A stretch of 64,000 bases of DNA from Candidatus Yanofskybacteria bacterium RIFCSPLOWO2_02_FULL_44_18. GTDB taxonomy: Bacteria > Patescibacteriota > Minisyncoccia > 2-02-FULL-40-12 > GWA2-44-9. The number at the start of each line of letters is the position of its first letter. The stretch's first letter is position 1. A program made the translations under genes and the position numbers. Of the stretch, positions 8,839 to 45,206 are shown piece by piece. The stretch lies in assembly GCA_001794755.1 (NCBI GenBank), contig MGKT01000008.1, positions 11,491 to 75,490 of the forward strand, in the 5' to 3' direction. The notes beneath the pieces are model-generated. The model was not told the DNA's origin, did no database searches, and worked only from the letters and a program-made list of their open reading frames with translations.

Positions 8839-9004
8839 AAACTAAAGGGGACAGTCTGGTTCCCCAATTCAGTTCTCCGAAGATTACCTCATTGGCAGAC
8901 TACCCCCTTTAGGGGACGAGGTAATAAAAAACGGAGCTATAAATTGGGGAACAAGTCCATTATACCATTTTGGTTAGGGTTGCCAATCATACTTTTCAAG
9001 CTAT

Positions 9005-10129: not shown

Positions 10130-10193
10130 ATTTTTACTTTTAGTTAGTTAATGGTATTAAATGGGACATTTACGAGTAGTGATAAATAACCTA

Positions 10194-10595: not shown

Positions 10596-10609
10596 ATTCC
10601 ACAGCTTCT

Positions 10610-10798: not shown

Positions 10799-10941
10799 TC
10801 AATTATGGCAGGGTAGCTACTTCAAAGTTTGGGGGCAAAAATTTGCCCCTTTACGGTCTGTTAAATTGCTGATAATACAATGCTAAACAAAAACACTCCT
10901 TTTTATTGGAGCGTTTTTTGTTGCCTTTTTAGCACCACTGG

Positions 10942-12234: not shown

Positions 12235-12483
12235 TTTTTTCTTAATTTCTCAATGTTGTCCCCTAAAACACATCAAGGGCTTTATTCTTAGCTCAATTTA
12301 GGGTATCTTATTTATGTTCACCTATAACGACTTTTCCTAAAGGGAGGTCATCCTTTTTTATCCAATTATGGGTAGAGATGGGTGGCCGAGTTCCGTAATT
12401 GGACTCCCTTTGGGAAGTTCCGTTATGGGTGAACACTCGGCTGCCCTTTTTTGTTTAGGGTGATTGAGGCATAACGTTCACCT

Positions 12484-14418
12484 ATGCCCCGAAAGCGGAA
12501 AAATGACAATAAGGAAGAGTTAAAAATACAAAGCCAATCAAATGGTGATTTTGTAAATCCAGAACCTGAAGAAGTAGAAATTCCCGTTCAAGAAGAGTTT
12601 TATCAGATGCCGACAAGATTCGGCAATGTGCCAGTAGATAAAGCTCCTCTTGGCTGGGATGAGCAGAGAAGATTTGAAAAAGTTTATCCCAGAGTATCTC
12701 TTCCGTTTCAGCAAATAGAAAGGGTTTCTTTTGGGCATTCAGAGCTTGAACCCAACAAGCTGTTTTTTGGCGACAACTTACACATAATGCGTCTGTTGCC
12801 ATCTAAATCCATTGACCTTATTTATATTGACCCACCATTTTTCTCTGGCAAGAATTACAACATTTTATATGGCGACAAAAACGAACTTCGTTCTTTTCAG
12901 GATATTTGGGAAGGTGGTATGCCTGGCTACCTAATTTGGCTCAACGCTCGTCTTTATGAGATGAAGCGATTACTTAAAGATACCGGCTCTATCTATGTTC
13001 ACCTGGATTGGCACGCAAGTCATTATGTAAAGGTAGAAATGGATAAAATCTTTGGGTATGAAAATTTCTTAAATGATATTTCCTGGTGTTATAGAGGGTA
13101 TGAACACAATAAAAGCTATTTTAATAGAAAACACGATTCTATACTATTTTATGCTAAAAATATAAAAAGTAAGAGTGCTTTTAATTACGATAAAATAAGA
13201 GAGGAGTTATCAGATGTTACAAAAAAGAAATATAAACATAAGGATGAAAACGGTTTTTATCGTATTCGTGGAAGAAATATAAAAGGTAGCCCCGTTAAAC
13301 AACAGACCGACCTAACTCACGAACAAGAAGAAAAATATTCAGGATTAACATATAGACAATATCTAACAGAGGGCACCTTACCAAGAGATTGGTTTGTTTT
13401 AGATTTTATCAATCAAGCTTCAAATGAAAAGATTGGTTATCCCACACAAAAACCAGAAGAATTATTAGAAAAATTGATATTAGCAGCATCAAATGATGGT
13501 GATGTGGTCGCAGATTTTTTCTGTGGTGGTGGCACAACACCAGTTACTGCTCAAGAACTTGGACGCAAATGGATTGCTTCTGATATATCTCGTATTGCTG
13601 TCGCACTTACAGCAGACAGGATATCTGTAGAGGCAGAAGAAAATAAGGACAGAAAAGTGCAGACCACTCTTTCTGGAATTAGCGACATATCAGATTTTAT
13701 TATTGAGCACTGGGGAATATACGAGATTCAAAAACTTAGTAAGATGAAATCGGCTCAATTCAGAAAGTTTATCATTGAAGCATATAATGGCCGTCCCGAC
13801 ACAACCTCTGACAATATACACGGGTATAAAAATGGCGAACCTCTTTTTGTCGGAGACCCGGAACCAGATGACAGAATTTCCAAAGAAGAAGTTGTTGCTT
13901 TTGCTAAGATAATTCTCACCAAAAAGGGTATACATAGAGGCACAATGCTTGGTTGGGCATTTAGTCCAGATGCCAGGGTTGTCGCTGAAAAATTAGTGGC
14001 CAGAGAAGGCATTACTTTGGACTTCGTTAAACTCAATTTAATTCCAGTAGATTCTCCAGAATTTAAGAGCCACATAACCGATAAACACCCCTCTTATGTT
14101 GATTTGGTTTCTTTTATTTTACCGCCTTTAATAAGGTTTGGTTTTAACAAAACTGGCGATTTGAAATACGAATTTGATGTTACCGAGTCAACTTCTATGA
14201 ACTCCGGCAGTAAGATAATCAATGTTCAGTGGGACTTTGATTATAGGAACAGGTTTAGTTCAACTCGTGGCTACTCATTTCTGCGAGGCAAAAAGAACGA
14301 ATCTTTGTTGAAAGTTGAATATACTTTTCCATCGGCAGGAAAAAGAAAAATAGCTTGCCGAGTCCAAGACGATAAGGGTGGCGAGGCAACACTCATAAAA
14401 GAGATTGGGATTGAATAA
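12484..14418 (+). CDS. Type III-like restriction-modification Mod subunit (beta-class N6A/N4C DNA methyltransferase)
   Basis: Motif IV DPPF (LIYIDPPFFSG) precedes motif I FxGxG (ADFFCGGGTT), the beta-class order, with TQKP in between. The stop is coupled to the Res start (TAA-at-ATG). Confidence 0.8.
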   Translation: MPRKRKNDNKEELKIQSQSNGDFVNPEPEEVEIPVQEEFYQMPTRFGNVPVDKAPLGWDEQRRFEKVYPRVSLPFQQIERVSFGHSELEPNKLFFGDNLHIMRLLPSKSIDLIYIDPPFFSGKNYNILYGDKNELRSFQDIWEGGMPGYLIWLNARLYEMKRLLKDTGSIYVHLDWHASHYVKVEMDKIFGYENFLNDISWCYRGYEHNKSYFNRKHDSILFYAKNIKSKSAFNYDKIREELSDVTKKKYKHKDENGFYRIRGRNIKGSPVKQQTDLTHEQEEKYSGLTYRQYLTEGTLPRDWFVLDFINQASNEKIGYPTQKPEELLEKLILAASNDGDVVADFFCGGGTTPVTAQELGRKWIASDISRIAVALTADRISVEAEENKDRKVQTTLSGISDISDFIIEHWGIYEIQKLSKMKSAQFRKFIIEAYNGRPDTTSDNIHGYKNGEPLFVGDPEPDDRISKEEVVAFAKIILTKKGIHRGTMLGWAFSPDARVVAEKLVAREGITLDFVKLNLIPVDSPEFKSHITDKHPSYVDLVSFILPPLIRFGFNKTGDLKYEFDVTESTSMNSGSKIINVQWDFDYRNRFSSTRGYSFLRGKKNESLLKVEYTFPSAGKRKIACRVQDDKGGEATLIKEIGIE

Positions 14419-14420
14419 AT

Positions 14421-16409
14421 ATGTTTAATTCTTTCTTACCTTACGAAAAGAAGTTTCAAGATTGGATAAACAACCGTTTTGAACACGAGAAAATGAAGCC
14501 CGAAACGAAGGAGTTTATTTTGCATATCTTAAATCCAGAAAGAGAAAGAAAACTCTGGCGAAATCAGCAGGAAGGAATTTTAAGAGCTATCTATGCCTAT
14601 GAAGTTTTAGGTAAGAAAAGTATATTACTCAACATAGTTACTGGTGGGGGTAAAACGGCAATAATCGCAGGTGTGATTGCTTGGTTGAGAATGGCCCATC
14701 AAATAAGACATTTTATTATTCTTAATCCCAATGTCATTGTCCGAGACAGATTACAGCAGGACTTTACCAAAGCCAAGATATTCAGGGACTTTAAGTTTTT
14801 CCCAGCCGTTTATTCTAATCTGTTAGATGACCTTGATTTACATATTCTTGGCGATAAACAAGCACCGCAAGGAATGCTTGAGTCAGGTGTTGTTCTGGGT
14901 AATATACAACAGCTTTACAGCAGAGGCGGTAAGGTAAGCCGCAATCTGGCCTATATTATGAACTTTCTCGGCGACTTGGCAGTTTTCAATGACGAAGCTC
15001 ATAATACGCCAGCACAAGAATATACAAATATCCTGATGCAATTAGCCAAGAAATCTAAGTTCCGTTTGGATACAACGGCAACGCCTGACAGGGCTGACAA
15101 TCAAAATCCCGATTCTGAAATGATTTACGAATACGGCATTCAAGATGCCCTGACCGATGACTTAATAAAATCGGTTGTCGTTTATCAGCCAGATATTAAA
15201 AGAGTTGAGCTTACTTACACGGATGTTGATACTGGCAAACAAGCCAAAGTTGAAGAAATTGATTGGGATGAGATAGACAGAAAAGGCATCAGTGCAACTC
15301 AATGGGTTACTGATGACAAGCCGTTAAAACAGCAAATCAAAATTGCTCTGGGCAGATTGGCAGAGCAAAAAGAGCGTGCCAAAGGACGCTATAAGCCAGT
15401 TCTGTTTGTGGTAGCTGTTTGTATCAGAGATGCCAAAAATGTCGTTAGTGTAATGGAGAAGAAATTTAACCTGAAGACCCTTTTGGTTACCGAGGAATCA
15501 GAAGAAGCACATCGCAGGGAAGCAGCCCACATAGGCCATCTGGATAGCCCCTACGATGCCGTTGTGAGCGTTTTAATGCTCCGTGAGGGCTGGGATGTGC
15601 CAGAGGTGGGGATTATTATGCTTTTACGCAAGTTCTCATCAAAGGTCTATGGCCAGCAGGTTATTGGCCGAGGATTGAGAAAGGTTATCAGAGACGATGG
15701 CGAAAGAGAGATACTGGCTGTTGTAGACCATCCAAAACTTGAACACGGCTGGCTTTGGAAGTTGGTTGGGGCAAAGATTAAAAAAGATGTCTCGGTAGAC
15801 GATAAATTTGATGTTGAAGAAGACCTGCCTGAAATACAACAGAAACAGGAACTTATTGACCCAGAAAAATTGATTGAAGTTCCAGAAATTGAAGGTGAAA
15901 TAGAACCTGATTTTGAAACAATTTTTGAAGGGTTAAAAGAAGTTCCAGTTACCGAAGATTGGCAGAAAATACTTGATGCAATCAACTACCCAAGAAATAA
16001 AGTTGAGATAACAGGTCTCAAATTACGGGGCATTAGAAAAATTGATTTAAGCGGCAAGCAGTATGTTGAGTATGAGCCGACAGAAGAAGACGAAGAAAAA
16101 CCAGCAGAGAAAGAGCAATCTGAAACCACATATTCCATAGATGACCTGCGAGAAGAATTAAAAGATGAGGTATTAGAACTAAGTTCCGAACTGCTTTTTA
16201 TGATGGGCTTCGGCTCAATCTACAAAGAGCTTATTTACAATACGGTTATGAACCATATTGATAAAAAACTTTTTAACGGCAAAACGCTTGGCCTGGCTGA
16301 ACAAAAGGACTTGGAATTTGCTTTGTATAAATTATCAGAAATAAGACGGGTATTTATGAAGCCTGGCTTAGTGCCAAGTATTATCCGCTATCCTAATGCA
16401 ACAGAGTGA
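14421..16409 (+). CDS. Type III-like Res subunit, SF2 helicase/ATPase part
   Basis: Walker A VTGGGKTAI, DEAH box FNDEAHN, TATP, and motif VI QQVIGRGLRK. Acidic C-terminal tail. No nuclease motif within this ORF. Confidence 0.75.
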   Translation: MFNSFLPYEKKFQDWINNRFEHEKMKPETKEFILHILNPERERKLWRNQQEGILRAIYAYEVLGKKSILLNIVTGGGKTAIIAGVIAWLRMAHQIRHFIILNPNVIVRDRLQQDFTKAKIFRDFKFFPAVYSNLLDDLDLHILGDKQAPQGMLESGVVLGNIQQLYSRGGKVSRNLAYIMNFLGDLAVFNDEAHNTPAQEYTNILMQLAKKSKFRLDTTATPDRADNQNPDSEMIYEYGIQDALTDDLIKSVVVYQPDIKRVELTYTDVDTGKQAKVEEIDWDEIDRKGISATQWVTDDKPLKQQIKIALGRLAEQKERAKGRYKPVLFVVAVCIRDAKNVVSVMEKKFNLKTLLVTEESEEAHRREAAHIGHLDSPYDAVVSVLMLREGWDVPEVGIIMLLRKFSSKVYGQQVIGRGLRKVIRDDGEREILAVVDHPKLEHGWLWKLVGAKIKKDVSVDDKFDVEEDLPEIQQKQELIDPEKLIEVPEIEGEIEPDFETIFEGLKEVPVTEDWQKILDAINYPRNKVEITGLKLRGIRKIDLSGKQYVEYEPTEEDEEKPAEKEQSETTYSIDDLREELKDEVLELSSELLFMMGFGSIYKELIYNTVMNHIDKKLFNGKTLGLAEQKDLEFALYKLSEIRRVFMKPGLVPSIIRYPNATE

Positions 16410-16746
16410 AAGAGGTGTATTTGAACATCCAACTAAAAGCCCATTCTCTTTGGAAAAATATGACTCTCGCTGGGAACGAGAGTATATGGAAGAATTGGAA
16501 ATGTATTCGGATATTGCTAAATGGACTAAAAACCATAGAATCAGAATACCCTATGTAGATGACGCTGGATATAAAAAGTATTTTGAACCTGATTTTTTGA
16601 TTGAAAAGATTGACGGAACAAAAGAAATACACGAAGTTAAAGGTGGCCACCTAATGAACCGAGAAGTTGAACTAAAAATGAATGCCGCTAAGTTGTTTTG
16701 CGAAGCCCGTAAAATGACCTTTCGGCTTATCACCAAATCAAGATGA
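16396..16746 (+). CDS. PD-(D/E)xK endonuclease domain protein (candidate detached Res nuclease domain)
   Basis: YFEPDFLIEKIDGTKEIHEVKG gives the D ... E-x-K signature. Overlaps the helicase ORF by 14 nt in the +1 frame. No SD. The nuclease frame is open only from 16372. Confidence 0.6.
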   Translation: MQQSERGVFEHPTKSPFSLEKYDSRWEREYMEELEMYSDIAKWTKNHRIRIPYVDDAGYKKYFEPDFLIEKIDGTKEIHEVKGGHLMNREVELKMNAAKLFCEARKMTFRLITKSR

Positions 16747-16788
16747 GATGACTTCAAGAGAGCGTTAGAAAAATTAAGGCGATTTATT

Positions 16789-17043
16789 ATGAAAACTTTT
16801 GCTGAAAAACTAAAGGAACACACAAACTATTGTAATAAAATAATGAAGCAAACCAGTAAGTTTATCTTGTTATCAAAAGAAGCTAAAAAAGAGGGTAATG
16901 ATAAAAATTATGTTGAGTTCATGGAGCAAGCTGAAAAATCCATAAAGTTAGCTGACGAAACTATGCGAGAGTTTGAAACAAATCACGGTAAAGAGTTGAA
17001 GATTTTAGAAGAATGGTATCAAAATAAATATAATGAGCAGTGA
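16789..17043 (+). CDS. Hypothetical coiled-coil protein (84 aa)
   Basis: Short Lys/Glu-rich ORF within the island. Confidence 0.4.
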   Translation: MKTFAEKLKEHTNYCNKIMKQTSKFILLSKEAKKEGNDKNYVEFMEQAEKSIKLADETMREFETNHGKELKILEEWYQNKYNEQ

Positions 17044-17056
17044 AGTGAGGTAAAAT

Positions 17057-17803
17057 ATGAACTGGCTAAAACAAAACTGGATAAAAATATGGATTGTCGC
17101 AATAATTGCTGGTGTTTTATTAGTTGGCTGGCTTTTGCTTAACTCAAAAAACGACACTCTTTCTTTCAAATGCCCTGACGAATATACAAATTTAGATGAG
17201 TATGTAGAAATAGTCGCTATGTGGGCCAGTGATTATCTTAAAGAAAACCCAGGAGCGACAAATGAAGAAGTTGCCGATGCAAGAGTTGTTTTTTTGAAAG
17301 AACAGGGGTGCGAAAACCACTTTCCAGGACTTGATAGTAAAATGGTTAGCGAGTTAGAAGAGGAAGCTAATAAGCAGATAGACACTGAAAAACTAATGGC
17401 GGGAATAAAATATGCCGAATCTCAAAGAAAAGATGAAGATGCCGATTCTTTAATTAAGTCTACAAATGAAAAAGAGCTTTACGATAATCACTACATTAAA
17501 CACCTCCGCACGGCTTTTAACGGCTATCTGGATGGCACAAATAACGGAGTAGAAGAAGGCACATCAGAAAAGAGCGAATTAGAAAGTGGTCTTAGGTGTG
17601 GTTTAGATAGTTTTGATAAAAATTACTTCAAGAGCGAGTTTAATGTTATCAAGACAGAAAAGAATGACTATGGCGGAATAGTGGCTTATATTGCCTTTTT
17701 GAACAATCACGACAGAGTATTTTGGACTTGGGTTTATCAATATGCTGGTGGCGAATTTACCCTTAGAGGATTTTGCGAATATGCCGCACTAATTGAGCAA
17801 TAA
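17057..17803 (+). CDS. Hypothetical membrane-anchored protein (248 aa)
   Basis: N-terminal TM WIKIWIVAIIAGVLLVGWLLL followed by a soluble domain. RBS GAGGTAAAAT before the ATG. Confidence 0.5.
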   Translation: MNWLKQNWIKIWIVAIIAGVLLVGWLLLNSKNDTLSFKCPDEYTNLDEYVEIVAMWASDYLKENPGATNEEVADARVVFLKEQGCENHFPGLDSKMVSELEEEANKQIDTEKLMAGIKYAESQRKDEDADSLIKSTNEKELYDNHYIKHLRTAFNGYLDGTNNGVEEGTSEKSELESGLRCGLDSFDKNYFKSEFNVIKTEKNDYGGIVAYIAFLNNHDRVFWTWVYQYAGGEFTLRGFCEYAALIEQ

Positions 17804-17815
17804 AATAATTTTAAT

Positions 17816-18001
17816 ATGTTATCAAAAGAAGCCCTTGAAGAATTCAAGGCAATTTACAAAAAAGAATATAACGAGGATATTTCAGACGAAGATGCCCTTG
17901 AAATGGCCGTGAACCTTTTGAATATGATGAACGCAATTTATCGGCCAATCCCAAAGAAATGGCTTGATGAATTAGAAGAAAAAGATGGCTTGGTTAAGTA
18001 A
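17816..18001 (+). CDS. Small hypothetical protein (61 aa), paralog of the 10610..10798 ORF
   Basis: MLSKEALEEFKAIYKKEYNEDISDEDALEMAVNLLNMMNAIY aligns with the 62-aa ORF on the minus strand. Confidence 0.45.
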   Translation: MLSKEALEEFKAIYKKEYNEDISDEDALEMAVNLLNMMNAIYRPIPKKWLDELEEKDGLVK

Positions 18002-18033
18002 AATTTGCTATAACTTACTTGGAATAGCGAGAG

Positions 18034-19014
18034 TTGGTATTCTTTGGCATTTTGCTAAAGACAGCATTGTTCAATAAGTCGGACTTGTTCCGTAAAAAGC
18101 AATTACTGGCTTACGGGTCTACCAAGAGCTTGGCCGAGCATCATTGGAGCAACTATGAGGGTCAAGGAGTGAACGAAGACCAACACAAGCGACGAAATCT
18201 TGTTTTCCTTCAAGTAGCTCGCTACTCCCACAAAGAACTCCCTTACGGGAGCTTTTTGTTGAGAAAGATAACAAAAACTGATAAATTGAGAATTATGAGC
18301 CAGGGCATTGCATATAACATTTATTGCGACGAATCCAGAGTAGAAAACCCAGAGTCCGACAAGATGGTAGTCGGGGCTATTTCGTTACCTCGTAATATCA
18401 AAGAAAAAACCACTAAAGAGCTAAAAAACATTTACAAGAAACATAACTTTTCAGGTGAATTAAAATGGACAAAAGTCAATAAAAATTATTCAAGCTTTTA
18501 CAAAGGCATAATGGATTTTGTCTTAAAGACCGAAGACCTAAACTTTCGGTGCATAATCGTGGATAAGAGTAAGGTTGATTATTCAAAATATCACGAGAAT
18601 GATACGGAATTGGCGTTCTTTAAGTTTTACTATCTGATGTTGCGGAGCAGGCTCTTAGATAATAATAGTTACTACATTTTTCTTGATAAAAAGCCCACCA
18701 GAGATAAAAATAGAGCAAGAGCACTGCTATCATTTTTAAGTTCTTATGTATTACTTCGTCGCAAAGAATGTAACATAGAGCATCTACAAGCTTATGACTC
18801 AAAAGATAATATACACATACAGCTCGCTGATTTTTTAACAGGATTAGTTGCTTATGGCGTTAACACAGAAGCTGGAAATAATATAAAAATGCAGATGGTG
18901 AATTATTTTAAGGATGTTTTCTTAATAGAAGACTTGCTCAAAACAACGCCATTAACCAGTAACAAGATTAATATACTTGCCTGGAATCCAAATTTTTATG
19001 AAAAAGGTCGTTGA
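18034..19014 (+). CDS. DUF3800-family protein (alternative shorter start ATG at 18295)
   Basis: YNIYCDES (the N-terminal DES motif) and the C-terminal QLADFLTG motif characteristic of DUF3800. The 87 in-frame codons upstream (TTG at 18034) may be an extension or a leader. Confidence 0.65.
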   Translation: MVFFGILLKTALFNKSDLFRKKQLLAYGSTKSLAEHHWSNYEGQGVNEDQHKRRNLVFLQVARYSHKELPYGSFLLRKITKTDKLRIMSQGIAYNIYCDESRVENPESDKMVVGAISLPRNIKEKTTKELKNIYKKHNFSGELKWTKVNKNYSSFYKGIMDFVLKTEDLNFRCIIVDKSKVDYSKYHENDTELAFFKFYYLMLRSRLLDNNSYYIFLDKKPTRDKNRARALLSFLSSYVLLRRKECNIEHLQAYDSKDNIHIQLADFLTGLVAYGVNTEAGNNIKMQMVNYFKDVFLIEDLLKTTPLTSNKINILAWNPNFYEKGR

Positions 19015-30189: not shown

Positions 30190-30978
30190 ATGACACGCAA
30201 CATAAAATTAGCCGTTTGGCATGGACTCGTCGCTTTATTCGCCTGGCGGTTGTGGCTTTTCAGCGGAACGGTTTCTTTTAATTCCGTAATCGGTTTTGAT
30301 TTAAGCTTGCCGGCCGTTCTGATATTTATTCTTCTTTGTTCTTTTATTGCTACCGGTTATGTTTTATTTCAGGAAAAAAGATGGGCCTTGGCCGTGTCCG
30401 CCGCCGTCGGCCTGACATTTCTGGCCTATCTGGGCTGGACGTGGCTTAACATATTGGCCGTCATCGGCTTTTGGCTTTTTAACGTGTATGCTGTATCGAA
30501 CGCGAAGTCGAACATGCACGGCCGGATACGTCTTAACGTGAGATTGGCCCTGCTCTCATCTCTTTACCCGGTGGTTATAGGTTTTTTCCTTATGTTCTCA
30601 TTCGCCGCGTATCAAAGCGATATCTTGAACGACATTAAAAAATCTCAAAGACTGCCGTCCCAGGCCCAGGAGGCGATAAGGCAGTTCGCAAAGGAATTCG
30701 TGGGGCCAAGGATAGAGGGAACGCAAAAAGAAAAAGAAACCGCCATCAATCAAGTCTCAAACGAAACGTTCAATGAAATTAACAGATTTCTAAAACCGTT
30801 TTTCACCTCAGCTCCGCCGGTTCTTGCTTTTACTCTCTTTTTAATCCTGCTGGGTGTGTCTTGGATATTTGTCTGGCTGTCCATGCTCACCGGTCTTCTC
30901 ATTTTCTTCATTCTGAAGAAATCTAATTTTATCAGAGTCGAAAAGAAGCAAGTCGAGGCCGAAACGATTATTATTTAA
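30190..30978 (+). CDS. Hypothetical polytopic membrane protein (262 aa)
   Basis: ATG immediately after the dnaK stop. Multiple TM segments. Confidence 0.5.
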   Translation: MTRNIKLAVWHGLVALFAWRLWLFSGTVSFNSVIGFDLSLPAVLIFILLCSFIATGYVLFQEKRWALAVSAAVGLTFLAYLGWTWLNILAVIGFWLFNVYAVSNAKSNMHGRIRLNVRLALLSSLYPVVIGFFLMFSFAAYQSDILNDIKKSQRLPSQAQEAIRQFAKEFVGPRIEGTQKEKETAINQVSNETFNEINRFLKPFFTSAPPVLAFTLFLILLGVSWIFVWLSMLTGLLIFFILKKSNFIRVEKKQVEAETIII

Positions 30979-30981
30979 AAA

Positions 30982-31770
30982 ATGGCGAATCGCGACTATT
31001 ACAATATTCTCGGCGTGCCTCGCACGGCGACGCCCGAGGACATAAAAAGGGCCTATCGTAAGCTGGCCCATCAATATCATCCTGATAAACAAGGCGGGGA
31101 TGATATTAAATTTAAAGAAATAAACGAGGCATACCAGATTCTTTCTAATCCCAACAAAAGATCCAATTATGATAACTTTGGTTACGCCTACAGCGAAGGC
31201 GGATTTCAGGGCGGCGGAGGTGGCGGATATGAATATGATTTCAGCAATTTCTGGGATATGTTCGGCGGCCGCCAAAAAGGAGGTTTCGAAGATATATTTG
31301 ATTTCTTTTCCGACATGGGCGGCGGCCAGTACCGCCAGGCAACTAAAGGCGAGGATTTATATTTGGAAATAAGCATATCAAAGAAGGATTTGGGGACGAC
31401 TAAATATTATGAATACGAAATCCAGGATTATTGCCCTGAATGCGTCGGGTCAGGCATCGCTAAAGGCTACTCCGTAAAAACATGCTCTGCCTGCAATGGC
31501 TTGGGTCAGGTTCAAAAGACGACACGAGGCGGCTTCGGATTTTTTTCTCAAATATCAATTTGCCGCGCCTGCGGCGGCAAAGGAAAAGTTTCCGAAAAAG
31601 AATGTCCGCATTGCAGAGCATCGGGCCGCGTAAAAATGAAAAAAAACATTGAAATCAGAATCCCTCGGGACGTCGAAAGGGAATATACGATTATCGTGCC
31701 CAAAGGCGGCAATGCCGGCCGCGAAGGACAACCGCCCGGAGATATCGTAATCTCCCTCAAACTAAAATAA
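30982..31770 (+). CDS. dnaJ: Chaperone DnaJ, short form (J domain, G/F region, four CxxCxGxG zinc motifs, truncated C-terminal domain)
   Basis: DYYNILGV...HPDK J domain. G/F-rich linker. CPECVGSG, CSACNGLG, CRACGGKG, CPHCRASG. Only ~45 aa after the zinc finger. Confidence 0.8.
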   Translation: MANRDYYNILGVPRTATPEDIKRAYRKLAHQYHPDKQGGDDIKFKEINEAYQILSNPNKRSNYDNFGYAYSEGGFQGGGGGGYEYDFSNFWDMFGGRQKGGFEDIFDFFSDMGGGQYRQATKGEDLYLEISISKKDLGTTKYYEYEIQDYCPECVGSGIAKGYSVKTCSACNGLGQVQKTTRGGFGFFSQISICRACGGKGKVSEKECPHCRASGRVKMKKNIEIRIPRDVEREYTIIVPKGGNAGREGQPPGDIVISLKLK

Positions 31771-31891
31771 CACCGCTTTATGCGGTGTTATTAGTCACAG
31801 AATGCCAACTTTTTCATTTGACTCTGGACGCATATTCGCATAAATAATAATCAGTCCTTTTACATGAGGCATAGACATATGGGAGAAGTAT

Positions 31892-34552
31892 ATGGAAACT
31901 GATGTTAACGTTACCGTTCAAGATATTCAAAGCATTGAATCAGCCTCGCCTGCATTTCGAATGTGGCTGGCTGATATGTACTCGAGGCATTTTTTGGACG
32001 ATATTATCCATATTCTTGTCCACCGCATCGGCGCCGCCGATGATAAAAAAGGCGCTCTTGAGTTCCTGTCCGATATCAGCCGCGATTCCTTGAATCCCCA
32101 CATTACAATCGGCGATTTCCATGGCGACGGATATTTCCAAACGAGACTATTCAAAGAACTGAAACAAAGAACATCCGGTCTAAACGGCGATATCAGAAAC
32201 GATAATACATTCATGGTTCACGGCATTGTCGGGCACGCGGCGATGGGCGAGCTGTCAATCGGCGCTCTTCCGCCGACGGTTCTTCAGCGGCACGCGCATC
32301 GCCAGATTGAATTCTGGCAGAATAGACATTTTCAAGAGTCATTTGAATTCGAGAGATGGTTAATTCCGCATCCGACACTGATAAGAAACGGCAAAGTAAC
32401 GAAAGAATTTGAAAAGCAACTGGCCAGCATATGGGACACGCTGAAAAGCGTGCCCGTCACGCCGATTTCACAAGCATATAACTGGCTGGCGAGGACTGAA
32501 TCGGAAAGGCGGCGCTTGCGCAGCCTGATTGCTCAGTTTTTTGGATCGGCTTACGTTTACCAGCTTGAGGAATACGACAGCGCCGGATATTTGACCGCCA
32601 TGACATTAATGAGCTGGGCCGGGGCGATTTTGGATTATCTGGATAAGGGGCACAGGCCATTAATATTGGAAACAAACGTAATCGGCCGGAATCACGGGTA
32701 TAACGCAGGCAGAATTGATGCTTTTGAAGTATCGGAACTGGATGAGAGGCCGTTACGGCCGAGCGAACTCAAAATCATGGGTGAGATTGTTTCAAAGCGA
32801 GCCAGATTTGAATCGCTGGAGAATTTCGTAAGATCTGTTTCGCGCCTGTTCAACGTCAAAAGAGTGACTCTATCTGTTTTTGATTTTAAGATGGCAATCG
32901 GAGACGGCGGTCCCAATCATGTTTTAACGGAGTCTGGAATAAAAGACGTGTCGGTAAGGCATACCCGGCAAGTTCAAAGGTATCTGTGCCATCTGTCTTT
33001 GGTCCATCAGCGAAATTCGGACACAACCCCAAACGGACAAATATCTCCGCTTCTGTGGGATTCCGGAGGCTACGGAGAGATTTGGTATGTGCTTCATTCA
33101 ACGCTGCCTAAGCGGATTCCAATTCAGCTTAATTCAGCTGAATTGGAGAATGCGTACATTAAAGAAATAGCCGCTCGATGGCAAAAGGCCCAGGGTTTAG
33201 CCGATGTCAGACAGATGTCAAACCGCATATACAATCGGCTCTTTTACTTGATTGACAGCACATTACCTCGAAAATCCTTTAAGGCAGGAACAAAATCCTC
33301 TCTGTTTCAAATCAGCGAAACCCAAACGCATATACGAAAAATTGTTGACGCGTACAGATTCAAGGGTCCTCTGGATATGTTCGAATTAATCGGCATAAAA
33401 AACGACAAGCCCGAGTATGGCTTGCATCTTGACCGTCTCCTGGAGGCAATCAGGAGGGGATTGGTTAAAACAAGAATGTTCCACCCGTTCCGTGGCGGTA
33501 AAATCGCTTGCCCCTTCCACGGCGAAGAGGGCCCGTCGCTTCACGTGTATCTTGCGGACGGCCATTATCATTGCTTCGCCTGCGAACAACGAGGGAATAT
33601 TATTCCCGGTTCTGTGCCCGACAATATGGCGGACATTGTCTCCAATTCAGCGAGCGGAGGAGACAACAAATGGGACGGCAATGTATCTCGCGAACATAGT
33701 CTGCTAATGACAAGAGTTCAGCAATTCTTGAGTTCCAGTTTCTGGAAAAGTCCGGTTCCAGCCTATCTCAAAGATCAAAGAAAAATCGATCCTGACTTGG
33801 CTTTTAGCCTCGAAATCGGATACGGATCCGATGAATTGATAATTCATCTTTTGGAATGCGGATACAATATCGCCGTTTTGGAAAGATATGGAGTAATCAG
33901 TTTTTCAACCCGCGGCAGTTCGTCGTACCGTTTGCCCCAAATGCTGAAAAGATACGGATTAAACGTCGCGGAAAGGCAGAGAACAGTGCCAGATCCTGAT
34001 AGCGGAAAAGATGCCGTGGCACATCCATACACGATGTTGCGCGGACGGCTGACCGCCCCGTTATACACCGGCCAAGAAATTACTAATTTTTACGGCCGTG
34101 ACTTGTTAAGACGATCGCATATCAAGCTGTCAACAGGCGTACCCTACGAAGGTTACCACGTCTGGGTTGCTTCATATCCCGGTGATGAAGTATTGGTTGC
34201 CGAAGGCGTAATCGAGGTCTTAACGCTGATTCATATGGGATACTCCAACAGTATCGCCATCGTCGGAGTGAATAACCCCATCGCGGATAAGCTCCTTATC
34301 GCCTCAGGCAAAAAAATCGGCCTCGGATTCAACATCGATTCCAATCTTACCGGCCAGACAAACACCGAAAAGTGGCGCCAGAGATTGAGCGTCGGAGGAA
34401 TTCCGCCGGAAAAAATACGGAACTTTACAAATGAATTCGCGATGGCCCATAAAGGGAAATTCCCAAATGACTTCAACGATTGGTGGCGGCAATATGGTAA
34501 TTGGCAAGAGTTGTTTGAAAATATATCGCGTCAAAAATCATTAGTCGCATAG
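31892..34552 (+). CDS. Large protein: ~530-aa unknown N-terminal domain fused to a DnaG-primase-like CHC2 zinc finger + Toprim core
   Basis: CPFHGEEGPSLHVYLADGHYHCFACEQRGN matches the DnaG zinc finger CPFHxExxPSFxV...CFxC. The downstream LVAEGVIEVLTLIHMGYSNSIAIVG is Toprim-like (Glu motif). The second acidic motif is degenerate (IDSN instead of DxD). No helicase-interaction C-terminal domain evident. Confidence 0.6.
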   Translation: METDVNVTVQDIQSIESASPAFRMWLADMYSRHFLDDIIHILVHRIGAADDKKGALEFLSDISRDSLNPHITIGDFHGDGYFQTRLFKELKQRTSGLNGDIRNDNTFMVHGIVGHAAMGELSIGALPPTVLQRHAHRQIEFWQNRHFQESFEFERWLIPHPTLIRNGKVTKEFEKQLASIWDTLKSVPVTPISQAYNWLARTESERRRLRSLIAQFFGSAYVYQLEEYDSAGYLTAMTLMSWAGAILDYLDKGHRPLILETNVIGRNHGYNAGRIDAFEVSELDERPLRPSELKIMGEIVSKRARFESLENFVRSVSRLFNVKRVTLSVFDFKMAIGDGGPNHVLTESGIKDVSVRHTRQVQRYLCHLSLVHQRNSDTTPNGQISPLLWDSGGYGEIWYVLHSTLPKRIPIQLNSAELENAYIKEIAARWQKAQGLADVRQMSNRIYNRLFYLIDSTLPRKSFKAGTKSSLFQISETQTHIRKIVDAYRFKGPLDMFELIGIKNDKPEYGLHLDRLLEAIRRGLVKTRMFHPFRGGKIACPFHGEEGPSLHVYLADGHYHCFACEQRGNIIPGSVPDNMADIVSNSASGGDNKWDGNVSREHSLLMTRVQQFLSSSFWKSPVPAYLKDQRKIDPDLAFSLEIGYGSDELIIHLLECGYNIAVLERYGVISFSTRGSSSYRLPQMLKRYGLNVAERQRTVPDPDSGKDAVAHPYTMLRGRLTAPLYTGQEITNFYGRDLLRRSHIKLSTGVPYEGYHVWVASYPGDEVLVAEGVIEVLTLIHMGYSNSIAIVGVNNPIADKLLIASGKKIGLGFNIDSNLTGQTNTEKWRQRLSVGGIPPEKIRNFTNEFAMAHKGKFPNDFNDWWRQYGNWQELFENISRQKSLVA

Positions 34553-34600
34553 CCCCAGACATGGGGCTTTTTTGTAAACAAAAAGCCCTTTCGGGCTATG
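34553..34600. terminator. Bidirectional terminator pair between convergent genes
   Basis: CCCCAGACATGGGG followed by CTTTTTT, then AGCCCTTTCGGGCT. Confidence 0.55.
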
Positions 34601-35582
34601 CGGATATAAAATCCATTTGAGCCGTCATCAAACTGTGAGGATGGATTTCAACGGTAAAACAATCTCTGGATTCGGATGTCACACGGGCATCGAATCCGTT
34701 GAGTCTTTCTTCAATACCCGGCAGGGGATTCGGCATGGCGTCATAATACTTTCTCTTGTGAATAGTTCGAAGAATTTTTTGAAGATCTTCACCATATCTG
34801 CCTCTATGGTATTGGCCCAAAAAATCAAGGCATTTTCTGTTAAGATTTAGAGATAATTTCTCCTTGGAAAACATCAGGAATAAATCCCACGACGTCTTGG
34901 TTTTCGTGAATTCAAACTGTGAATTTCCTTTTATACGGCTAAGACCGCGGGAAATATATTTGGCCATTCCTCTTATTTTTCCGGTATTGATTGAGCTGAT
35001 CAGTTCTCGGGCATAAATATCGGCAGTCAGATGCGTATCGTGGAAACTCATGGAAAATCTGACCCCTCGGCTGACTTCTATTTTCATAACCGGTCTTGAA
35101 AATCTCAATCGTCCCGTTCTCTTGGGGCGGCGCGGGTTTCGCATTGTGAAATATCCCGATGTTTTGCGATTGCGCATCTGATCGGAGGCCTTGTCGAGAA
35201 TTTGTTCAAAAATAATCGGCGCCACAAAAGAATATTGTTCCGGGGTTAATGAAAACCACTTCCTCCTTTTATGATTGCAAAAACCGTTTCTCCAGTTATA
35301 TGACCTTTGGTAGGGCCGTGTTCGCCACAATCCGACCTCACAAAGCACGACACGCAAAAAGGCAAGTCCCTCGGCCGACGTTCCGGGCAGTCCGACACCG
35401 GGGCCGATTACCGCAATCACATTTAATTTGGGATTAAGATTGATTTTAACCCTGACCGGAACCGTGCCGTCCAGCTGGGCCGGAACCTCGATGCATACGG
35501 CGGCGTTGTGCATTACCAATGCCACATCTTGATTTACGAATTTTGCTACAAATGGGGGAGAATAATTCCATTCTCTGGGCAT
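34596..35582 (-). CDS. Hypothetical protein (328 aa)
   Basis: Strong SD AAGGAGAGG before the ATG at 35582 (the ORF track extends to 35630). No family recognised. Confidence 0.55.
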   Translation of the reverse strand: MPREWNYSPPFVAKFVNQDVALVMHNAAVCIEVPAQLDGTVPVRVKINLNPKLNVIAVIGPGVGLPGTSAEGLAFLRVVLCEVGLWRTRPYQRSYNWRNGFCNHKRRKWFSLTPEQYSFVAPIIFEQILDKASDQMRNRKTSGYFTMRNPRRPKRTGRLRFSRPVMKIEVSRGVRFSMSFHDTHLTADIYARELISSINTGKIRGMAKYISRGLSRIKGNSQFEFTKTKTSWDLFLMFSKEKLSLNLNRKCLDFLGQYHRGRYGEDLQKILRTIHKRKYYDAMPNPLPGIEERLNGFDARVTSESRDCFTVEIHPHSLMTAQMDFISA

Positions 35583-35636
35583 ACCTCTCCTTGTCAATGA
35601 AGCTGATATGAAATTACAGCAAATGTACAAAAAAGT

Positions 35637-43773: not shown

Positions 43774-44472
43774 ATGCCCAAATTAGTATTCGACATTGAG
43801 ACTGTAGGAGTGGAATTTGATTCTTTGGACGAAATATCCAAGAATCATCTTTTGGAATTCGCTGAAAATGAGGAGGAAAGAAAAAATATCCGGAATGAAC
43901 TTGGGTTCTCTCCTCTCACCGGCCGCGTTATCGCCGTGGGTATATTGAATCCGGATACGGAAAAAGGGGCGGTATATTTTCAATCGCATGATAATACCCC
44001 TGCCGGCGGAGAAATAAAGTTGGACAAGAAGACGGCATCGGACGAAGAAGTTCAATATGTCCCCTGCTCCGATGAAAAAGAAATACTGAAAAATTTTTGG
44101 GATGCGGCTCAACATTATCGCCAATTTGTTTCGTTCAACGGCCATTCTTTTGATTGTCCCTATCTCATGATTCGTTCGGCCGTCAACGAAATTAAGCCAA
44201 GCGTCAGTTTGATGCACAATCGCTATGCCCCGGGCCCGCATATTGACATACTTGATAGATTGACCAATTTTGGCGCCGTCAGGGGCAAAAGAAATTTGCA
44301 TCTATGGTGCCAGGCTTTTGGCATTGAGAGCCCGAAAGACAAGGGAATATCAGGAGAGGAGGTTGCCCGATATTTCAATGAAGGCAAAATACTGGACATT
44401 GCCAAATATTGCTATGGTGACATCAAATCAACGGCAAAATTATTTGAATATTGGGAAAAATTCATTAAATGA
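43774..44472 (+). CDS. RNase H-like 3-prime to 5-prime exonuclease (DEDD / PolB-exonuclease-like)
   Basis: VFDIETVG (Exo I DxE), FNGHSFDCPYL (Exo II) and YCYGD (Exo III YxxxD). Confidence 0.65.
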   Translation: MPKLVFDIETVGVEFDSLDEISKNHLLEFAENEEERKNIRNELGFSPLTGRVIAVGILNPDTEKGAVYFQSHDNTPAGGEIKLDKKTASDEEVQYVPCSDEKEILKNFWDAAQHYRQFVSFNGHSFDCPYLMIRSAVNEIKPSVSLMHNRYAPGPHIDILDRLTNFGAVRGKRNLHLWCQAFGIESPKDKGISGEEVARYFNEGKILDIAKYCYGDIKSTAKLFEYWEKFIK

Positions 44473-45206
44473 CTTGGTACAAAAGCGCGTCTGAATTTAA
44501 AGAGCAGAATGGATACACGATAGATGATGTTTGGTATCCGAGGGTAACCGCAATCGTCTCGATTAAGGCCAAACCGGCACTGTATGCTTTTTACGCGTCG
44601 ATGCCCAATTTTAAGGCCGCCGAAGCCATGAAGAATAAATCGGCCGATGAAGGCACATTGATTCATGATACGATTGAAGCGATATTAAAGAATGAGAAGG
44701 TTGAGATTCCTGAAAATATCAAACCGGCGATTTCGGCGTTTCTGGATTTCAGGAGCCGCAACGATATCGACGTCCATAAAGTCGAGGAGAGAATATTAAG
44801 CAAGAAGCACGGATATTCCGGCACGATGGACGTGCTGGCCGAAGTTAATGGCCATTTGGGAGTTTTGGACATAAAAACATCGATGGCCATATATCGCGAT
44901 TACAATATGCAGACATCGGCCTATGTCGAAGCTCTGGTTGAAAACGCGGACATTCCTCCCCTATCCCGCTGGATATTGAGAATTGATCAGAACAAAAAAT
45001 GCGTGAGATGCGGAGCGTCATTAAGAAGCAAAGGCGGAAGGGATAAAATACGGGGCGACAAATACCCCTGTGAACATGAATGGTCGGAAATGAGAGGAGA
45101 ATATGAATTCAAGGAATTGCCGAATTTCGATCACGACATCAAGGCGTTTCTGGCTTGTAAAACTCTTTGGGAATGGGAGCATGACTATTGGCTGAGGCAT
45201 GTATGA
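44469..45206 (+). CDS. PD-(D/E)xK nuclease, RecB/Cas4-like
   Basis: GTMDVLAEVNGHLGVLDIKTS (D ... D-x-K) and YNMQTSAY (QxxxY). Cys residues near the C-terminus. ATGA start/stop overlap with the upstream exonuclease gene. Confidence 0.6.
   Translation: MTWYKSASEFKEQNGYTIDDVWYPRVTAIVSIKAKPALYAFYASMPNFKAAEAMKNKSADEGTLIHDTIEAILKNEKVEIPENIKPAISAFLDFRSRNDIDVHKVEERILSKKHGYSGTMDVLAEVNGHLGVLDIKTSMAIYRDYNMQTSAYVEALVENADIPPLSRWILRIDQNKKCVRCGASLRSKGGRDKIRGDKYPCEHEWSEMRGEYEFKELPNFDHDIKAFLACKTLWEWEHDYWLRHV

What the first reader, a model, noticed from the sequence alone, without database searches (positions are those of the whole stretch)
31892..34552. 886-aa protein: 530-aa unknown N-terminal domain fused to a DnaG-like zinc finger and Toprim core
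Residues ~535-565 (CPFHGEEGPSLHVYLADGHYHCFACEQRGN) match the DnaG CHC2 zinc finger, and ~770-800 (LVAEGVIEVLTLIHMGYSNSIAIVG) match the Toprim glutamate motif. In every canonical DnaG the zinc finger is at the extreme N-terminus, with no large preceding domain. The Toprim DxD motif appears degenerate (IDSN), and no C-terminal DnaB-binding domain is evident. The gene sits directly after dnaJ, and no other dnaG is in this window. It could be the organism's divergent replicative primase with a novel regulatory N-domain, or a primase-like protein recruited for another function.
Basis: partly seen in the sequence, partly recalled or inferred. Interest (0 to 1): 0.65.

Follow-up and report, generated by a model that had tools for sequence, protein, structure and literature searches.

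The report
RecB-like nuclease fused to DnaG-type primase
This gene from a tiny-genome groundwater bacterium (Candidatus Yanofskybacteria) joins a DNA-cutting enzyme of the RecB/Cas4/MGME1 type to a DnaG-type primase that lacks the part that docks onto the replication helicase, and it most likely serves as an accessory repair or restart enzyme rather than the cell's main primase.

Summary
The 886-aa ORF (31892-34552, +) is real and intact. Its C-terminal part (residues ~478-880) is a DnaG-type zinc-binding domain plus RNA-polymerase/Toprim core. This rests on a Pfam hit, a family-profile match to Aquifex DnaG (E=4e-22), and an AlphaFold model (pLDDT 89) whose top PDB matches are all DnaG.

The "unknown" N-terminal module (1-457) is not a regulatory domain. 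It carries a near-invariant RecB-type PD-(D/E)xK motif set (G111xxxH115, E260, GRxD276, D331xK333, Q360xxxY364). Its model's best structural matches are MGME1, Cas4-like ACE1, EXO5 and phage RecB/RecE-type exonucleases, though each match is statistically weak.

The protein is not a one-off. At least 118 sequence clusters share the architecture at 25-39% identity, and every one that could be named comes from Parcubacteria-type CPR bacteria.

Family-wide the Toprim acidic residues are kept. The window's N-I-D in place of D-x-D is a minority variant (14 of 112). No member has a DnaB-binding domain.

In one genome (L009) a canonical dnaG-rpoD pair lies 4 kb from the family gene, which argues against a role as sole replicative primase. 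No canonical dnaG was found in about 81 kb around this gene, so this organism remains untested.

Verdict: a new architecture built from two known enzyme superfamilies; function inferred, not shown.

The parts
31892..34552 (+). Whole gene: 886-aa nuclease-primase fusion protein
   Evidence: Intact ORF. Identical to P0001, and 25-39% identical over its full length to about 112 relatives.
31881..31885 (+). Shine-Dalgarno-like GGGAG, 6 nt upstream of the ATG
   Evidence: Read directly from the sequence.
31892..32647 (+). Residues 1-252: helical N-terminal region of the nuclease module. It carries invariant D75, G111 and H115 (a GxxxH 'motif I' helix at 32222-32236) and a disordered insert at 129-159.
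   Evidence: AF2 models. G111 and H115 are conserved in 112 of 112 members. The GxxxH pairs with the GTLIH of a Cas4-like protein in a non-significant hhalign alignment.
32648..33262 (+). Residues 253-457: PD-(D/E)xK (RecB/Cas4/MGME1-like) nuclease core. Key residues are E260, G273-R274-x-D276, D331-x-K333, G337-D338, H357 and Q360xxxY364.
   Evidence: Residues are 96-100% conserved in 112 members. The strand/helix order is beta(258-262)-beta(274-283)-alpha-alpha-beta(325-334)-alpha(350-375)-beta-beta. The best Foldseek hits are MGME1, ACE1 (Cas4 family) and EXO5, and about half of the top 50 BFVD hits are PD-(D/E)XK/RecB/RecE exonucleases. All of these have weak E-values (0.03-4). No Pfam hit in any member.
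33263..33322 (+). Residues 458-477: flexible linker between the two modules
   Evidence: pLDDT falls to 51-69 for residues 461-480 and below 50 at 466-469, with no secondary structure.
33323..33661 (+). Residues 478-590: DnaG-type zinc-binding domain. The CHC2 ligands C540, H543, C561 and C564 lie at 33509-33583.
   Evidence: Pfam PF01807 E=4.8e-9 and TIGR01391 matched over residues 539-571. The three Cys are conserved in 112 of 112 members and the His in 105 of 112. Alignment with E. coli DnaG starts at about residue 478.
33683..34171 (+). Residues 598-760: N-terminal subdomain of the DnaG RNA-polymerase domain. It has R630 (= E. coli R146), R719/T721/P723, Y734-G735-R736 (= E. coli R221), H743-x-K745, and a family-specific insertion of about 35 aa (668-705).
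   Evidence: Alignment with E. coli and CPR DnaG. 11 of 57 members hit Pfam DNAG_N. phrog_47 DNA primase matches residues 532-807 with E=6e-16.
34184..34486 (+). Residues 765-865: Toprim fold. It has E771, E775 (family D), N814-I-D816 (family D-x-D), G821 and D860-F-N862.
   Evidence: Mapping to E. coli E265, D269, D309, D311, D345 and D347. Family patterns. Foldseek hits to DnaG RNA-polymerase domains with TM(target) 0.45-0.57.
34551..34578 (+). Terminator-like hairpin (AGCCCCAGACATGGGGCT) plus T-run, directly after the stop codon
   Evidence: This is a consensus match only.

Best explanation
The gene encodes a single polypeptide with two enzyme modules joined by a flexible linker.

Module 1 (residues 1-457) is a RecB/Cas4/MGME1-type PD-(D/E)xK nuclease without an iron-sulfur cluster. 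Module 2 (residues 478-880) is a DnaG-type primase: a CHC2 zinc-binding domain plus an RNA-polymerase/Toprim core. It stops right after the Toprim fold and so has no DnaB-helicase-binding domain.

The protein belongs to a small, previously unnamed family restricted to Parcubacteria-type CPR bacteria. It is an accessory paralogue of DnaG, not the fork primase.

Proposed mechanism (inferred):
1. DnaG-type primases are poorly active unless something tethers them to single-stranded DNA. Here the nuclease module replaces the helicase as that tether.
2. The nuclease module engages or trims a free ssDNA end, flap or resected break, as MGME1, EXO5 and Cas4 do.
3. The attached primase then lays an RNA primer on the exposed single strand.
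4. A DNA polymerase can then fill in or restart synthesis without DnaB. This would be end or gap processing coupled to re-priming, in repair or replication restart.

Shown here: the domain identities, the conservation of catalytic residues in both modules, the absence of a helicase-binding domain, coexistence with a canonical dnaG in one genome, and chromosomal housekeeping or repair-flavoured neighbourhoods.

Inferred only: both enzymatic activities, the substrates, the coupling between the modules, and the pathway.
For: Family: an exhaustive HMMER search found 374 relatives, 118 of them at E<=1e-30, mostly 840-990 aa with the same architecture. All named sources are Yanofsky-, Nomura- or Campbellbacteria, Paceibacterota or Parcubacteria.

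Primase module:
- Pfam zinc ribbon and phrog_47 primase over residues 532-807.
- Family profile against PDB sequences: Aquifex DnaG E=3.9e-22; P. aeruginosa, S. aureus, B. subtilis and E. coli DnaG at 1e-8 to 1e-12.
- AF2 model with pLDDT 89.4 and pTM 0.81; all 19 significant Foldseek PDB hits are DnaG.
- Residue mapping shows R146, R221, E265, D311 and D345 equivalents kept; the family pattern is EDDDDN in 73 of 112 members.

Nuclease module:
- G111, H115 and D276 are 100% conserved; E260, K333, D338 and Y364 are 98-99%; Q360 is 96%; position 331 is D or E in 110 of 112.
- The secondary-structure order fits the PD-(D/E)xK core.
- The top structural matches are MGME1, ACE1 (Cas4 family) and EXO5, plus many phage PD-(D/E)XK/RecB/RecE exonucleases.
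- Stand-alone versions exist (L017, L019, and P0116/P0123 etc.).

Not the fork primase:
- L009 has canonical dnaG (601 aa, including DnaB_bind) plus rpoD about 4 kb upstream of its family gene.
- No DnaB_bind domain in any of 57 members.
- Rare in GTDB.

Context:
- No relatives of the N-module were found in IMG/VR contigs, GenBank phages or PLSDB plasmids.
- No recurrent defence gene among 70 neighbours.
- Local synteny with priA/gltX/M23 peptidase in 3-6 loci.
- A GIY-YIG protein lies immediately downstream in 5 loci. An MGMT-like gene occurs upstream in 4 loci, directly adjacent in 3. A Cas4-like PD-(D/E)xK gene is adjacent in 2 loci.
Against: - No activity has been measured.
- Coexistence with canonical dnaG was seen in only one genome. 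For the window's own organism only about 81 kb could be inspected.
- The window protein has N814 in place of the first Toprim aspartate and E775 for D, so its primase could be weakened.
- Neighbourhood associations with repair genes are lineage-limited (2-5 of 40 loci each) and could simply reflect shared ancestry.
Confidence: 0.5

Rival explanations
1. It is the organism's only, divergent replicative primase. Yanofskybacteria have lost canonical DnaG, and the nuclease module adds a replication function such as primer or flap removal, or takes over recruitment to the fork.
For: - No canonical dnaG in the 64-kb window or in about 8.8 kb beyond each end.
- The gene lies in a core chromosomal region, 9 kb from dnaB and 4 kb from priA.
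- The primase motifs are largely intact.
- MGME1, the best structural match, processes replication flaps in mitochondria (its function is from general knowledge).
Against: - A relative coexists with a complete dnaG-rpoD pair.
- No helicase-binding domain is present, although the window's DnaB keeps its N-terminal primase-docking domain (PF00772).
- The family is rare among CPR species.
- Stand-alone N-modules without a primase half exist.
- The window protein carries substitutions at two Toprim acidic positions, which is odd for an essential primase.
- Only about 10% of a typical genome of this kind was inspected, so failing to find dnaG is weak evidence.
Confidence: 0.12
2. It is a defence or mobile-element protein. 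The primase-like module would sense or bind foreign ssDNA, or prime element replication, and the nuclease would be the effector. This would be comparable to the Toprim or PD-(D/E)xK nucleases of OLD/Gabija, PARIS or Shedu, or to conjugative DnaG-like primases.
For: - The patchy, rare distribution.
- PADLOC models of DRT-associated DnaG-like proteins hit the zinc finger.
- L009 has a Pycsar-effector-like TM gene immediately upstream.
- The P0002 locus has LexA-methylase, endonuclease VII and HTH genes nearby.
- A mobile island lies 12 kb away in the window.
Against: - The PADLOC hits cover only the roughly 35-residue zinc ribbon.
- No defence family recurs among 70 neighbours.
- Neighbours are mostly housekeeping genes: dnaK/J, trxB, ftsZ, ftsH, smpB, infC, priA.
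- No relatives in IMG/VR, phage or plasmid collections.
- GC content matches the flanking DNA.
- Synteny is shared between the window, L011 and L017.
- The gene lies outside the 7253-19684 island.
Confidence: 0.13
3. In this particular organism only the nuclease is catalytic. The DnaG-like half, with N814 and E775, would be a non-catalytic ssDNA-binding or targeting module.
For: - The nuclease residues are intact in all 112 members, whereas Toprim positions vary.
- The window protein has D309->N and D269->E equivalents, and it alone scores only 13 bits on Toprim_2.
- 3 of 112 members have clearly degenerate Toprim sites yet keep the nuclease.
Against: - Asn and Glu can still bind metal ions.
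- The E-E-N-D-D-N or E-D-N-D-D-N patterns recur in 12 of 112 members, with all other primase residues (zinc ligands, R630, R736, K745, E771, D816, D860) kept under apparent selection.
- 14 of 112 members share N814.
Confidence: 0.15

Closest known systems
Bacterial replicative primase DnaG (TIGR01391; Pfam PF01807 + PF08275 + PF13155 + PF10410)
   Same: It has the CHC2 zinc-binding domain, the N-subdomain of the RNA-polymerase domain with equivalents of E. coli R146, R221 and K229/Y230, and a Toprim fold with equivalents of E265, D311 and D345. DnaG is the best sequence and structure match.
   Different: - About 475 extra residues precede the zinc finger.
- There is no helical subdomain after Toprim and no DnaB-binding C-terminal domain.
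- There is an insertion of about 35 aa at 668-705.
- The D347 equivalent is Asn family-wide. In the window protein the D309 equivalent is Asn and the D269 equivalent is Glu.
- TIGR01391 scores 50.5 bits against a cutoff of 283.6.
- It coexists with a canonical dnaG in L009.
MGME1 / EXO5 / Cas4 / RecB-AddB nuclease domains (RecB-type PD-(D/E)xK nucleases)
   Same: It has the same motif set: a GxxxH helix, an acidic residue in beta-1, GxxD, (D/E)xK and QxxxY. These nucleases are also the best structural matches to the N-module.
   Different: - No Pfam or profile match.
- No conserved cysteines for an Fe-S cluster, unlike Cas4, EXO5 and AddB.
- About 140 residues of extra helices and a disordered loop lie between the GxxxH helix and the core sheet.
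- It is fused to a primase.
Phage T7 gp4 and mitochondrial Twinkle (DnaG-type primase fused to a helicase)
   Same: A DnaG-type zinc-binding domain plus Toprim primase is covalently joined to a second DNA-processing enzyme that can hold it on ssDNA. They appear as lower-ranked structural hits.
   Different: Their partner is a C-terminal DnaB-like helicase. Here the partner is an N-terminal nuclease, and no helicase is fused or consistently adjacent.
Bacterial LigD (NHEJ enzyme: primase-polymerase + phosphoesterase nuclease + ligase)
   Same: It follows the same functional logic of putting an end-processing nuclease and a primase-type polymerase in one repair polypeptide. This analogy comes from general knowledge and was not tested here.
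   Different: The folds are unrelated: LigD uses an AEP primase and a phosphoesterase rather than Toprim and PD-(D/E)xK. This protein has no ligase module, and no Ku partner was established. A single Mu Gam-like neighbour was seen in 1 of 70 genes.
Toprim nucleases of defence systems (OLD/GajA, AriB) and DRT-associated DnaG-like proteins
   Same: They show a Toprim and/or CHC2 finger used outside the replisome. PADLOC's RTasDnaG-like model hits the zinc ribbon.
   Different: Those proteins lack the DnaG RNA-polymerase N-subdomain and/or carry ATPase or RT partners. The match here covers the zinc ribbon only, and the neighbourhood shows no defence context.

Membership tests
Replicative primase DnaG (TIGR01391 equivalog) | CHC2 zinc-binding domain | tested here: met
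   PF01807 at E=4.8e-9, above its cutoff. C540, C561 and C564 are conserved in 112 of 112 members and H543 in 105 of 112.
Replicative primase DnaG (TIGR01391 equivalog) | RNA-polymerase domain: N-subdomain with conserved basic residues, plus the Toprim fold | tested here: met
   Family profile against 2au3 at E=3.9e-22. Foldseek hits to DnaG RNA-polymerase domains at E=1e-5 to 1e-9. R630=R146 and R736=R221.
Replicative primase DnaG (TIGR01391 equivalog) | Full set of Toprim acidic residues (E. coli E265, D269, D309, D311, D345, D347) | tested here: inconclusive
   The window protein has E, E, N, D, D, N at these positions. The family consensus is E, D, D, D, D, N. Three are identical, one is a conservative change, and two are Asn.
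Replicative primase DnaG (TIGR01391 equivalog) | C-terminal DnaB-helicase-binding domain | tested here: not met
   The protein ends at about E. coli residue 365. DnaB_bind is absent in 57 of 57 members but present in L009's canonical DnaG.
Replicative primase DnaG (TIGR01391 equivalog) | Whole-protein score above the curated cutoff | tested here: not met
   TIGR01391 scores 50.5 bits against a cutoff of 283.6, and only residues 539-571 match.
Replicative primase DnaG (TIGR01391 equivalog) | Being the genome's (single) fork primase | tested here: inconclusive
   A relative coexists with canonical dnaG-rpoD in L009. The window organism's full genome could not be searched, and about 81 kb around the gene has no dnaG.
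RecB-type PD-(D/E)xK nuclease (RecB/AddB/Cas4/MGME1/EXO5) | Catalytic D ... (D/E)xK on consecutive beta-strands of an alpha-beta-beta-beta-alpha-beta core | tested here: met
   D276 lies at the start of strand 274-283 and D331-x-K333 at the end of strand 325-334. Conservation is 98-100%.
RecB-type PD-(D/E)xK nuclease (RecB/AddB/Cas4/MGME1/EXO5) | QxxxY motif in the helix after the (D/E)xK strand, and a GxxxH N-terminal helix motif | tested here: met
   Q360 (96%) and Y364 (98%) lie in helix 350-375. G111 and H115 are 100% conserved.
RecB-type PD-(D/E)xK nuclease (RecB/AddB/Cas4/MGME1/EXO5) | Significant fold or profile similarity to known members | tested here: inconclusive
RecB-type PD-(D/E)xK nuclease (RecB/AddB/Cas4/MGME1/EXO5) | Four-cysteine Fe-S cluster (Cas4/AddB/EXO5 subgroup only) | tested here: not met
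   No conserved cysteine appears among the conserved N-module columns. The module therefore resembles the cluster-free MGME1/RecB subgroup.
RecB-type PD-(D/E)xK nuclease (RecB/AddB/Cas4/MGME1/EXO5) | Metal-dependent nuclease activity | not testable with these tools
   Requires biochemistry.
Known anti-phage defence systems (PADLOC) | Match to a defence protein model beyond a shared generic domain, and defence-gene neighbours | tested here: not met
   Only the zinc ribbon matches the DRT-associated models. No defence family recurs among 70 neighbours.

The most novel reading that the evidence does not exclude
The family is a self-contained, helicase-independent 'resect-and-prime' enzyme. Its RecB/MGME1-like nuclease loads on and trims a DNA end, flap or imported single strand, and thereby positions its own DnaG-type primase to start complementary-strand synthesis. 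That would be a previously unknown repair, restart or DNA-uptake pathway specific to CPR bacteria, which lack much of the standard recombination machinery.
Probability: 0.3. Interest if true: 0.8.

Novelty: new variant of a known kind. Interest (0 to 1): 0.6.

Why it matters
DnaG-type primases are known as replisome parts coupled to a hexameric helicase, either through a docking domain (bacteria) or by fusion (T7 gp4, Twinkle). A conserved DnaG-type primase that swaps the helicase link for a RecB/MGME1-type nuclease would be a new way of recruiting a primase to DNA.

It would also point to a priming step in repair, restart or DNA uptake in CPR bacteria, whose DNA metabolism is almost unstudied. 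The N-module additionally defines an unannotated branch of PD-(D/E)xK nucleases: it has no Pfam or NCBIfam model, and public records call it 'hypothetical' or 'CHC2 zinc finger protein'.

The hypothesis is directly testable with one recombinant protein and four point mutants.

Tried and rejected
- The word-indexed protein search found only P0001 and P0002, even when queried with a 111-sequence profile. The exhaustive representative search was what revealed the family.
- Pfam, NCBIfam, PHROGs and PADLOC on the N-module gave nothing. Profile searches of PDB sequences hit nothing for the N-module.
- hhalign of the N-module profile against the E. coli RecB nuclease domain and against a 3-sequence Cas4-like profile from the window was not significant. 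Both templates had almost no sequence diversity.
- The convergent downstream genes of the window and of the P0002 locus are not homologous, so there is no conserved two-gene module.
- The IMG/VR, GenBank phage and PLSDB plasmid collections hold no relatives of the N-module.
- Five literature searches found no description of a DnaG/PD-(D/E)xK fusion or of primases in Parcubacteria.
- I walked out from the window ends. The lookup on the Dus gene failed. The other lookups extended the view by about 8.8 kb on each side, with no dnaG.
- The 24 metagenome loci added no further cases of dnaG co-occurrence, because most of those contigs are short.
- I considered that the N-terminal helices might be a relocated DnaB-binding domain. 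No DnaG-C or DnaB-N structure appeared among the fold hits, so I dropped the idea for lack of evidence.
Full report
**1.

Window 31892-34552 (+) is an intact 886-aa ORF.
- It has a GGGAG ribosome-binding site 6 nt upstream of the ATG.
- A hairpin separates it from dnaJ.
- A hairpin plus T-run follows its stop codon directly.

Pfam places a DnaG CHC2 zinc ribbon at residues 539-571 (E=4.8e-9, above the curated cutoff). The window protein alone gives only a sub-threshold Toprim_2 match at 769-836. TIGR01391 (dnaG) matches just the zinc ribbon, at 50.5 bits against a cutoff of 283.6. The PHROG primase family phrog_47 aligns over residues 532-807 (E=6e-16).

The neighbourhood runs grpE, dnaK, a membrane protein, a short dnaJ, this gene, an unknown convergent ORF, efp, fmt, def, priA, gltX. 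dnaB lies 9 kb upstream. No other dnaG-like sequence is present in the window.

**2. It is a family, not an accident**

The word-indexed search found only an identical copy (P0001) and one relative, P0002 (25% identity over the full length). The exhaustive HMMER search of 1.84 billion representatives found 374 relatives, 118 of them at E<=1e-30. Most are 840-990 aa and align end to end.

The family was then located in DNA collections:
- Scans with two family peptide patterns found it in 15 GTDB species genomes and 24 metagenome contigs.
- Every named source is a Parcubacteria-type CPR organism: Yanofskybacteria, Nomurabacteria, Campbellbacteria, Paceibacterota, and some labelled "uncultured Saccharibacteria".
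- The window's own protein cluster is annotated in GenBank/UniRef as a Candidatus Yanofskybacteria "hypothetical protein" or "Zinc finger CHC2-type domain-containing protein".
- The two patterns match only 42 of 113 known full-length members. The true number of GTDB species is therefore perhaps about 40, still a small fraction of CPR diversity.

**3. The C-terminal part is a DnaG-type primase without a helicase-binding domain**

- A profile of the family hits the PDB sequences of Aquifex DnaG (E=3.9e-22) and of P. aeruginosa, S. aureus, B. subtilis, E. coli and M. tuberculosis DnaG.
- An AlphaFold2 model built on 111 family sequences is confident (mean pLDDT 89.4, pTM 0.81). All of its significant Foldseek PDB hits are DnaG structures, followed by T7 gp4 and Twinkle.
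- Across 57 members, 43 hit Zn_ribbon_DnaG, 40 Toprim_2 and 11 DNAG_N. None hits DnaB_bind.

Alignment with E. coli DnaG and three canonical DnaGs, one of them from a CPR genome, gives this residue mapping:

| E. coli DnaG | Window protein | Family |
|---|---|---|
| R146 | R630 | conserved |
| R221 | R736 | conserved |
| K229/Y230 | about K745 | conserved |
| E265 | E771 | E |
| D269 | E775 | D in 84% |
| D309 | N814 | D in 86%, N in 14 of 112 |
| D311 | D816 | D |
| D345 | D860 | D |
| D347 | N862 | N |

The homologous region begins at about residue 478 and ends at about E. coli residue 365. Both the helical subdomain and the helicase-binding domain are therefore missing.

The commonest family pattern at the six acidic positions is E-D-D-D-D-N (73 of 112). 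The window's E-E-N-D-D-N is shared by 4 members. Only 3 of 112 members have a clearly degenerate site.

**4. The N-terminal module is most likely a RecB-type PD-(D/E)xK nuclease**

The family alignment shows these near-invariant residues:
- G111, H115 and D276 in 112 of 112 members.
- E260 in 110.
- R274 in 101.
- D or E at position 331 in 110.
- K333, G337 and D338 in 111.
- Q360 in 108.
- Y364 in 110.

This is the classic RecB/Cas4 motif series: GxxxH helix, acidic residue, GxxD, (D/E)xK, QxxxY. In both AF2 models (full length, and residues 1-465 alone with pLDDT 88.4 and pTM 0.87) these residues fall where the fold requires. D276 is at the start of one strand, D331-x-K333 is at the end of the next core strand, and Q360/Y364 lie in the following long helix.

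The structural matches point the same way:
- Foldseek with the N-module alone returns human MGME1 as the top four PDB hits (probability 0.66-0.80). Argonaute-associated Cas4-family ACE1 and human EXO5 rank further down.
- In the viral structure library, about half of the top 50 hits are annotated PD-(D/E)XK, RecB-family or RecE-type exonucleases.

Three further points:
- There are no conserved cysteines, so this is the Fe-S-free (MGME1/RecB-like) kind.
- Residues 1-252 are extra helices around the GxxxH helix, with a disordered loop at 129-159.
- The module also exists as a stand-alone gene of about 500 aa (L017, L019; P0116, P0123, P0134, P0138, P0144, P0145), so it is an autonomous unit.

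**5. Is it the replicative primase?**

The one direct test available says no for the family. On a 262-kb Patescibacteria contig (L009), a 601-aa canonical dnaG (Zn ribbon, DNAG_N, Toprim, DnaB_bind) followed by rpoD lies about 4 kb upstream of the 964-aa family member.

Supporting points:
- No member has a helicase-binding domain.
- The window's DnaB keeps its N-terminal domain (PF00772). That this domain docks the primase is general knowledge, not tested here.
- The family is rare.
- Some genomes have only the nuclease half.

Against this, I could not search the window organism's whole genome. About 81 kb (the window plus about 8.8 kb on each side, taken from identical contigs) contains no dnaG. 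The replicative-primase reading keeps about 12%.

**6. Context and rivals**

The gene does not look mobile or defence-related:
- GC content matches the flanks.
- It lies outside the 12.4-kb island at 7253-19684.
- No relatives of the N-module were found in IMG/VR, GenBank phages or PLSDB plasmids.
- PADLOC hits are confined to the zinc ribbon.
- No defence family recurs among 70 neighbouring genes.

Neighbours are mostly housekeeping genes. Local synteny (priA, gltX, M23 peptidase) is shared by the window, L011 and L017, which suggests vertical inheritance.

Some sub-lineages place DNA-repair-type genes next to it:
- A GIY-YIG protein immediately downstream in 5 loci.
- An MGMT-like DNA-binding protein upstream in 4 loci, directly adjacent in 3.
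- A Cas4-like PD-(D/E)xK protein adjacent in 2 loci. Its orthologue is window 44469-45206.
- priA within 4-8 kb in 5 loci.

These associations suggest a link to repair but are not decisive.

**7. Most likely mechanism**

Two things are established knowledge. DnaG-type primases have little activity unless a partner holds them on ssDNA, which is DnaB via the C-terminal domain in bacteria and the fused helicase in T7 gp4. MGME1, EXO5 and Cas4 act on free ssDNA ends and flaps.

From this I infer that the nuclease module supplies the DNA engagement in this protein. It would bind or trim an end, flap or resected break, and the tethered primase would lay an RNA primer on the exposed strand for fill-in or restart, independently of DnaB. 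Confidence in this accessory nuclease-primase reading is 0.5.

The domain identities, residue conservation, missing helicase-binding domain and one case of coexistence with dnaG are shown. The activities, the substrates and the coupling are inferred. A variant reading (0.15) is that in this organism the primase half, with N814 and E775, only binds DNA.

**8. Novelty**

Both superfamilies are well known. I found no description of them joined in one protein in five literature searches. The N-module has no Pfam or NCBIfam model, and public annotations are "hypothetical".

This is a new architectural variant of known kinds, confined to CPR bacteria. Interest is 0.6. It would be higher (about 0.8) if coupled resection and priming were demonstrated.

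Noticed in passing
window 7253-19684: A 12.4-kb low-GC (0.36-0.40) insertion sits directly after tRNA-Glu (7180-7252). Otherwise identical contigs (L049 = GCA_001001195.1 LCKD01000003.1, and L047) run from window 7252 straight to 19685. The island carries a serine recombinase (7198-8838, -), a tyrosine integrase (9005-10129, -), an N6/N4 DNA methylase (12484-14418) and a ResIII helicase/restriction subunit (14421-16409).
   Followed up: partly
window 44469-45206 (+): A 245-aa Cas4/RecB-like PD-(D/E)xK protein with motifs GTLIH, GTMD, LDIKTS and QTSAY plus a C-terminal Cys/His cluster. PDDEXK_1 matches at E=6e-4, below its cutoff. Its orthologues lie immediately beside the nuclease-primase gene in L011 and L017.
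   Followed up: partly
L017 220-1746 and L019 9610-11145: Stand-alone genes of about 510 aa encode only the nuclease module, with no primase half in the surrounding 10-18 kb. C-terminal-only relatives also exist (P0114, P0117, P0122). Whether these are genuine split systems or truncations is unknown.
   Followed up: partly
window 34596-35630 (-): A 344-aa ORF (328 aa as called by JGI) convergent with the target gene has no hit in Pfam, NCBIfam, PHROGs or PADLOC. It is not homologous to the gene at the same position in the P0002 locus.
   Followed up: partly
window 30190-31770: A 262-aa multi-pass membrane protein with no Pfam family is wedged between dnaK and dnaJ, starting at the base after the dnaK ORF ends. 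The dnaJ itself is unusually short at 262 aa, with only a weak DnaJ_C match.
   Followed up: no
L015 6557-7471, L016 8807-9655, L028 2740-3624, L036 2166-2792, L043 2520-3377: In five loci a protein of about 300 aa with a C-terminal GIY-YIG nuclease domain follows the family gene on the same strand after a short gap of about 100-140 bp (L036 is not a clean case). This may be an operon in one sub-lineage.
   Followed up: partly
L009 9365-9826: A 153-aa protein matching the Pycsar effector TM domain (PycTM, E=6.5e-7) lies immediately upstream of the family gene in the one genome where canonical dnaG-rpoD is also nearby.
   Followed up: no
L046 374-1972 (about 8 kb left of the window start): A 532-aa product with an intein-splicing domain, and a Fic/HTH protein, lie just outside the window in identical contigs.
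   Followed up: no
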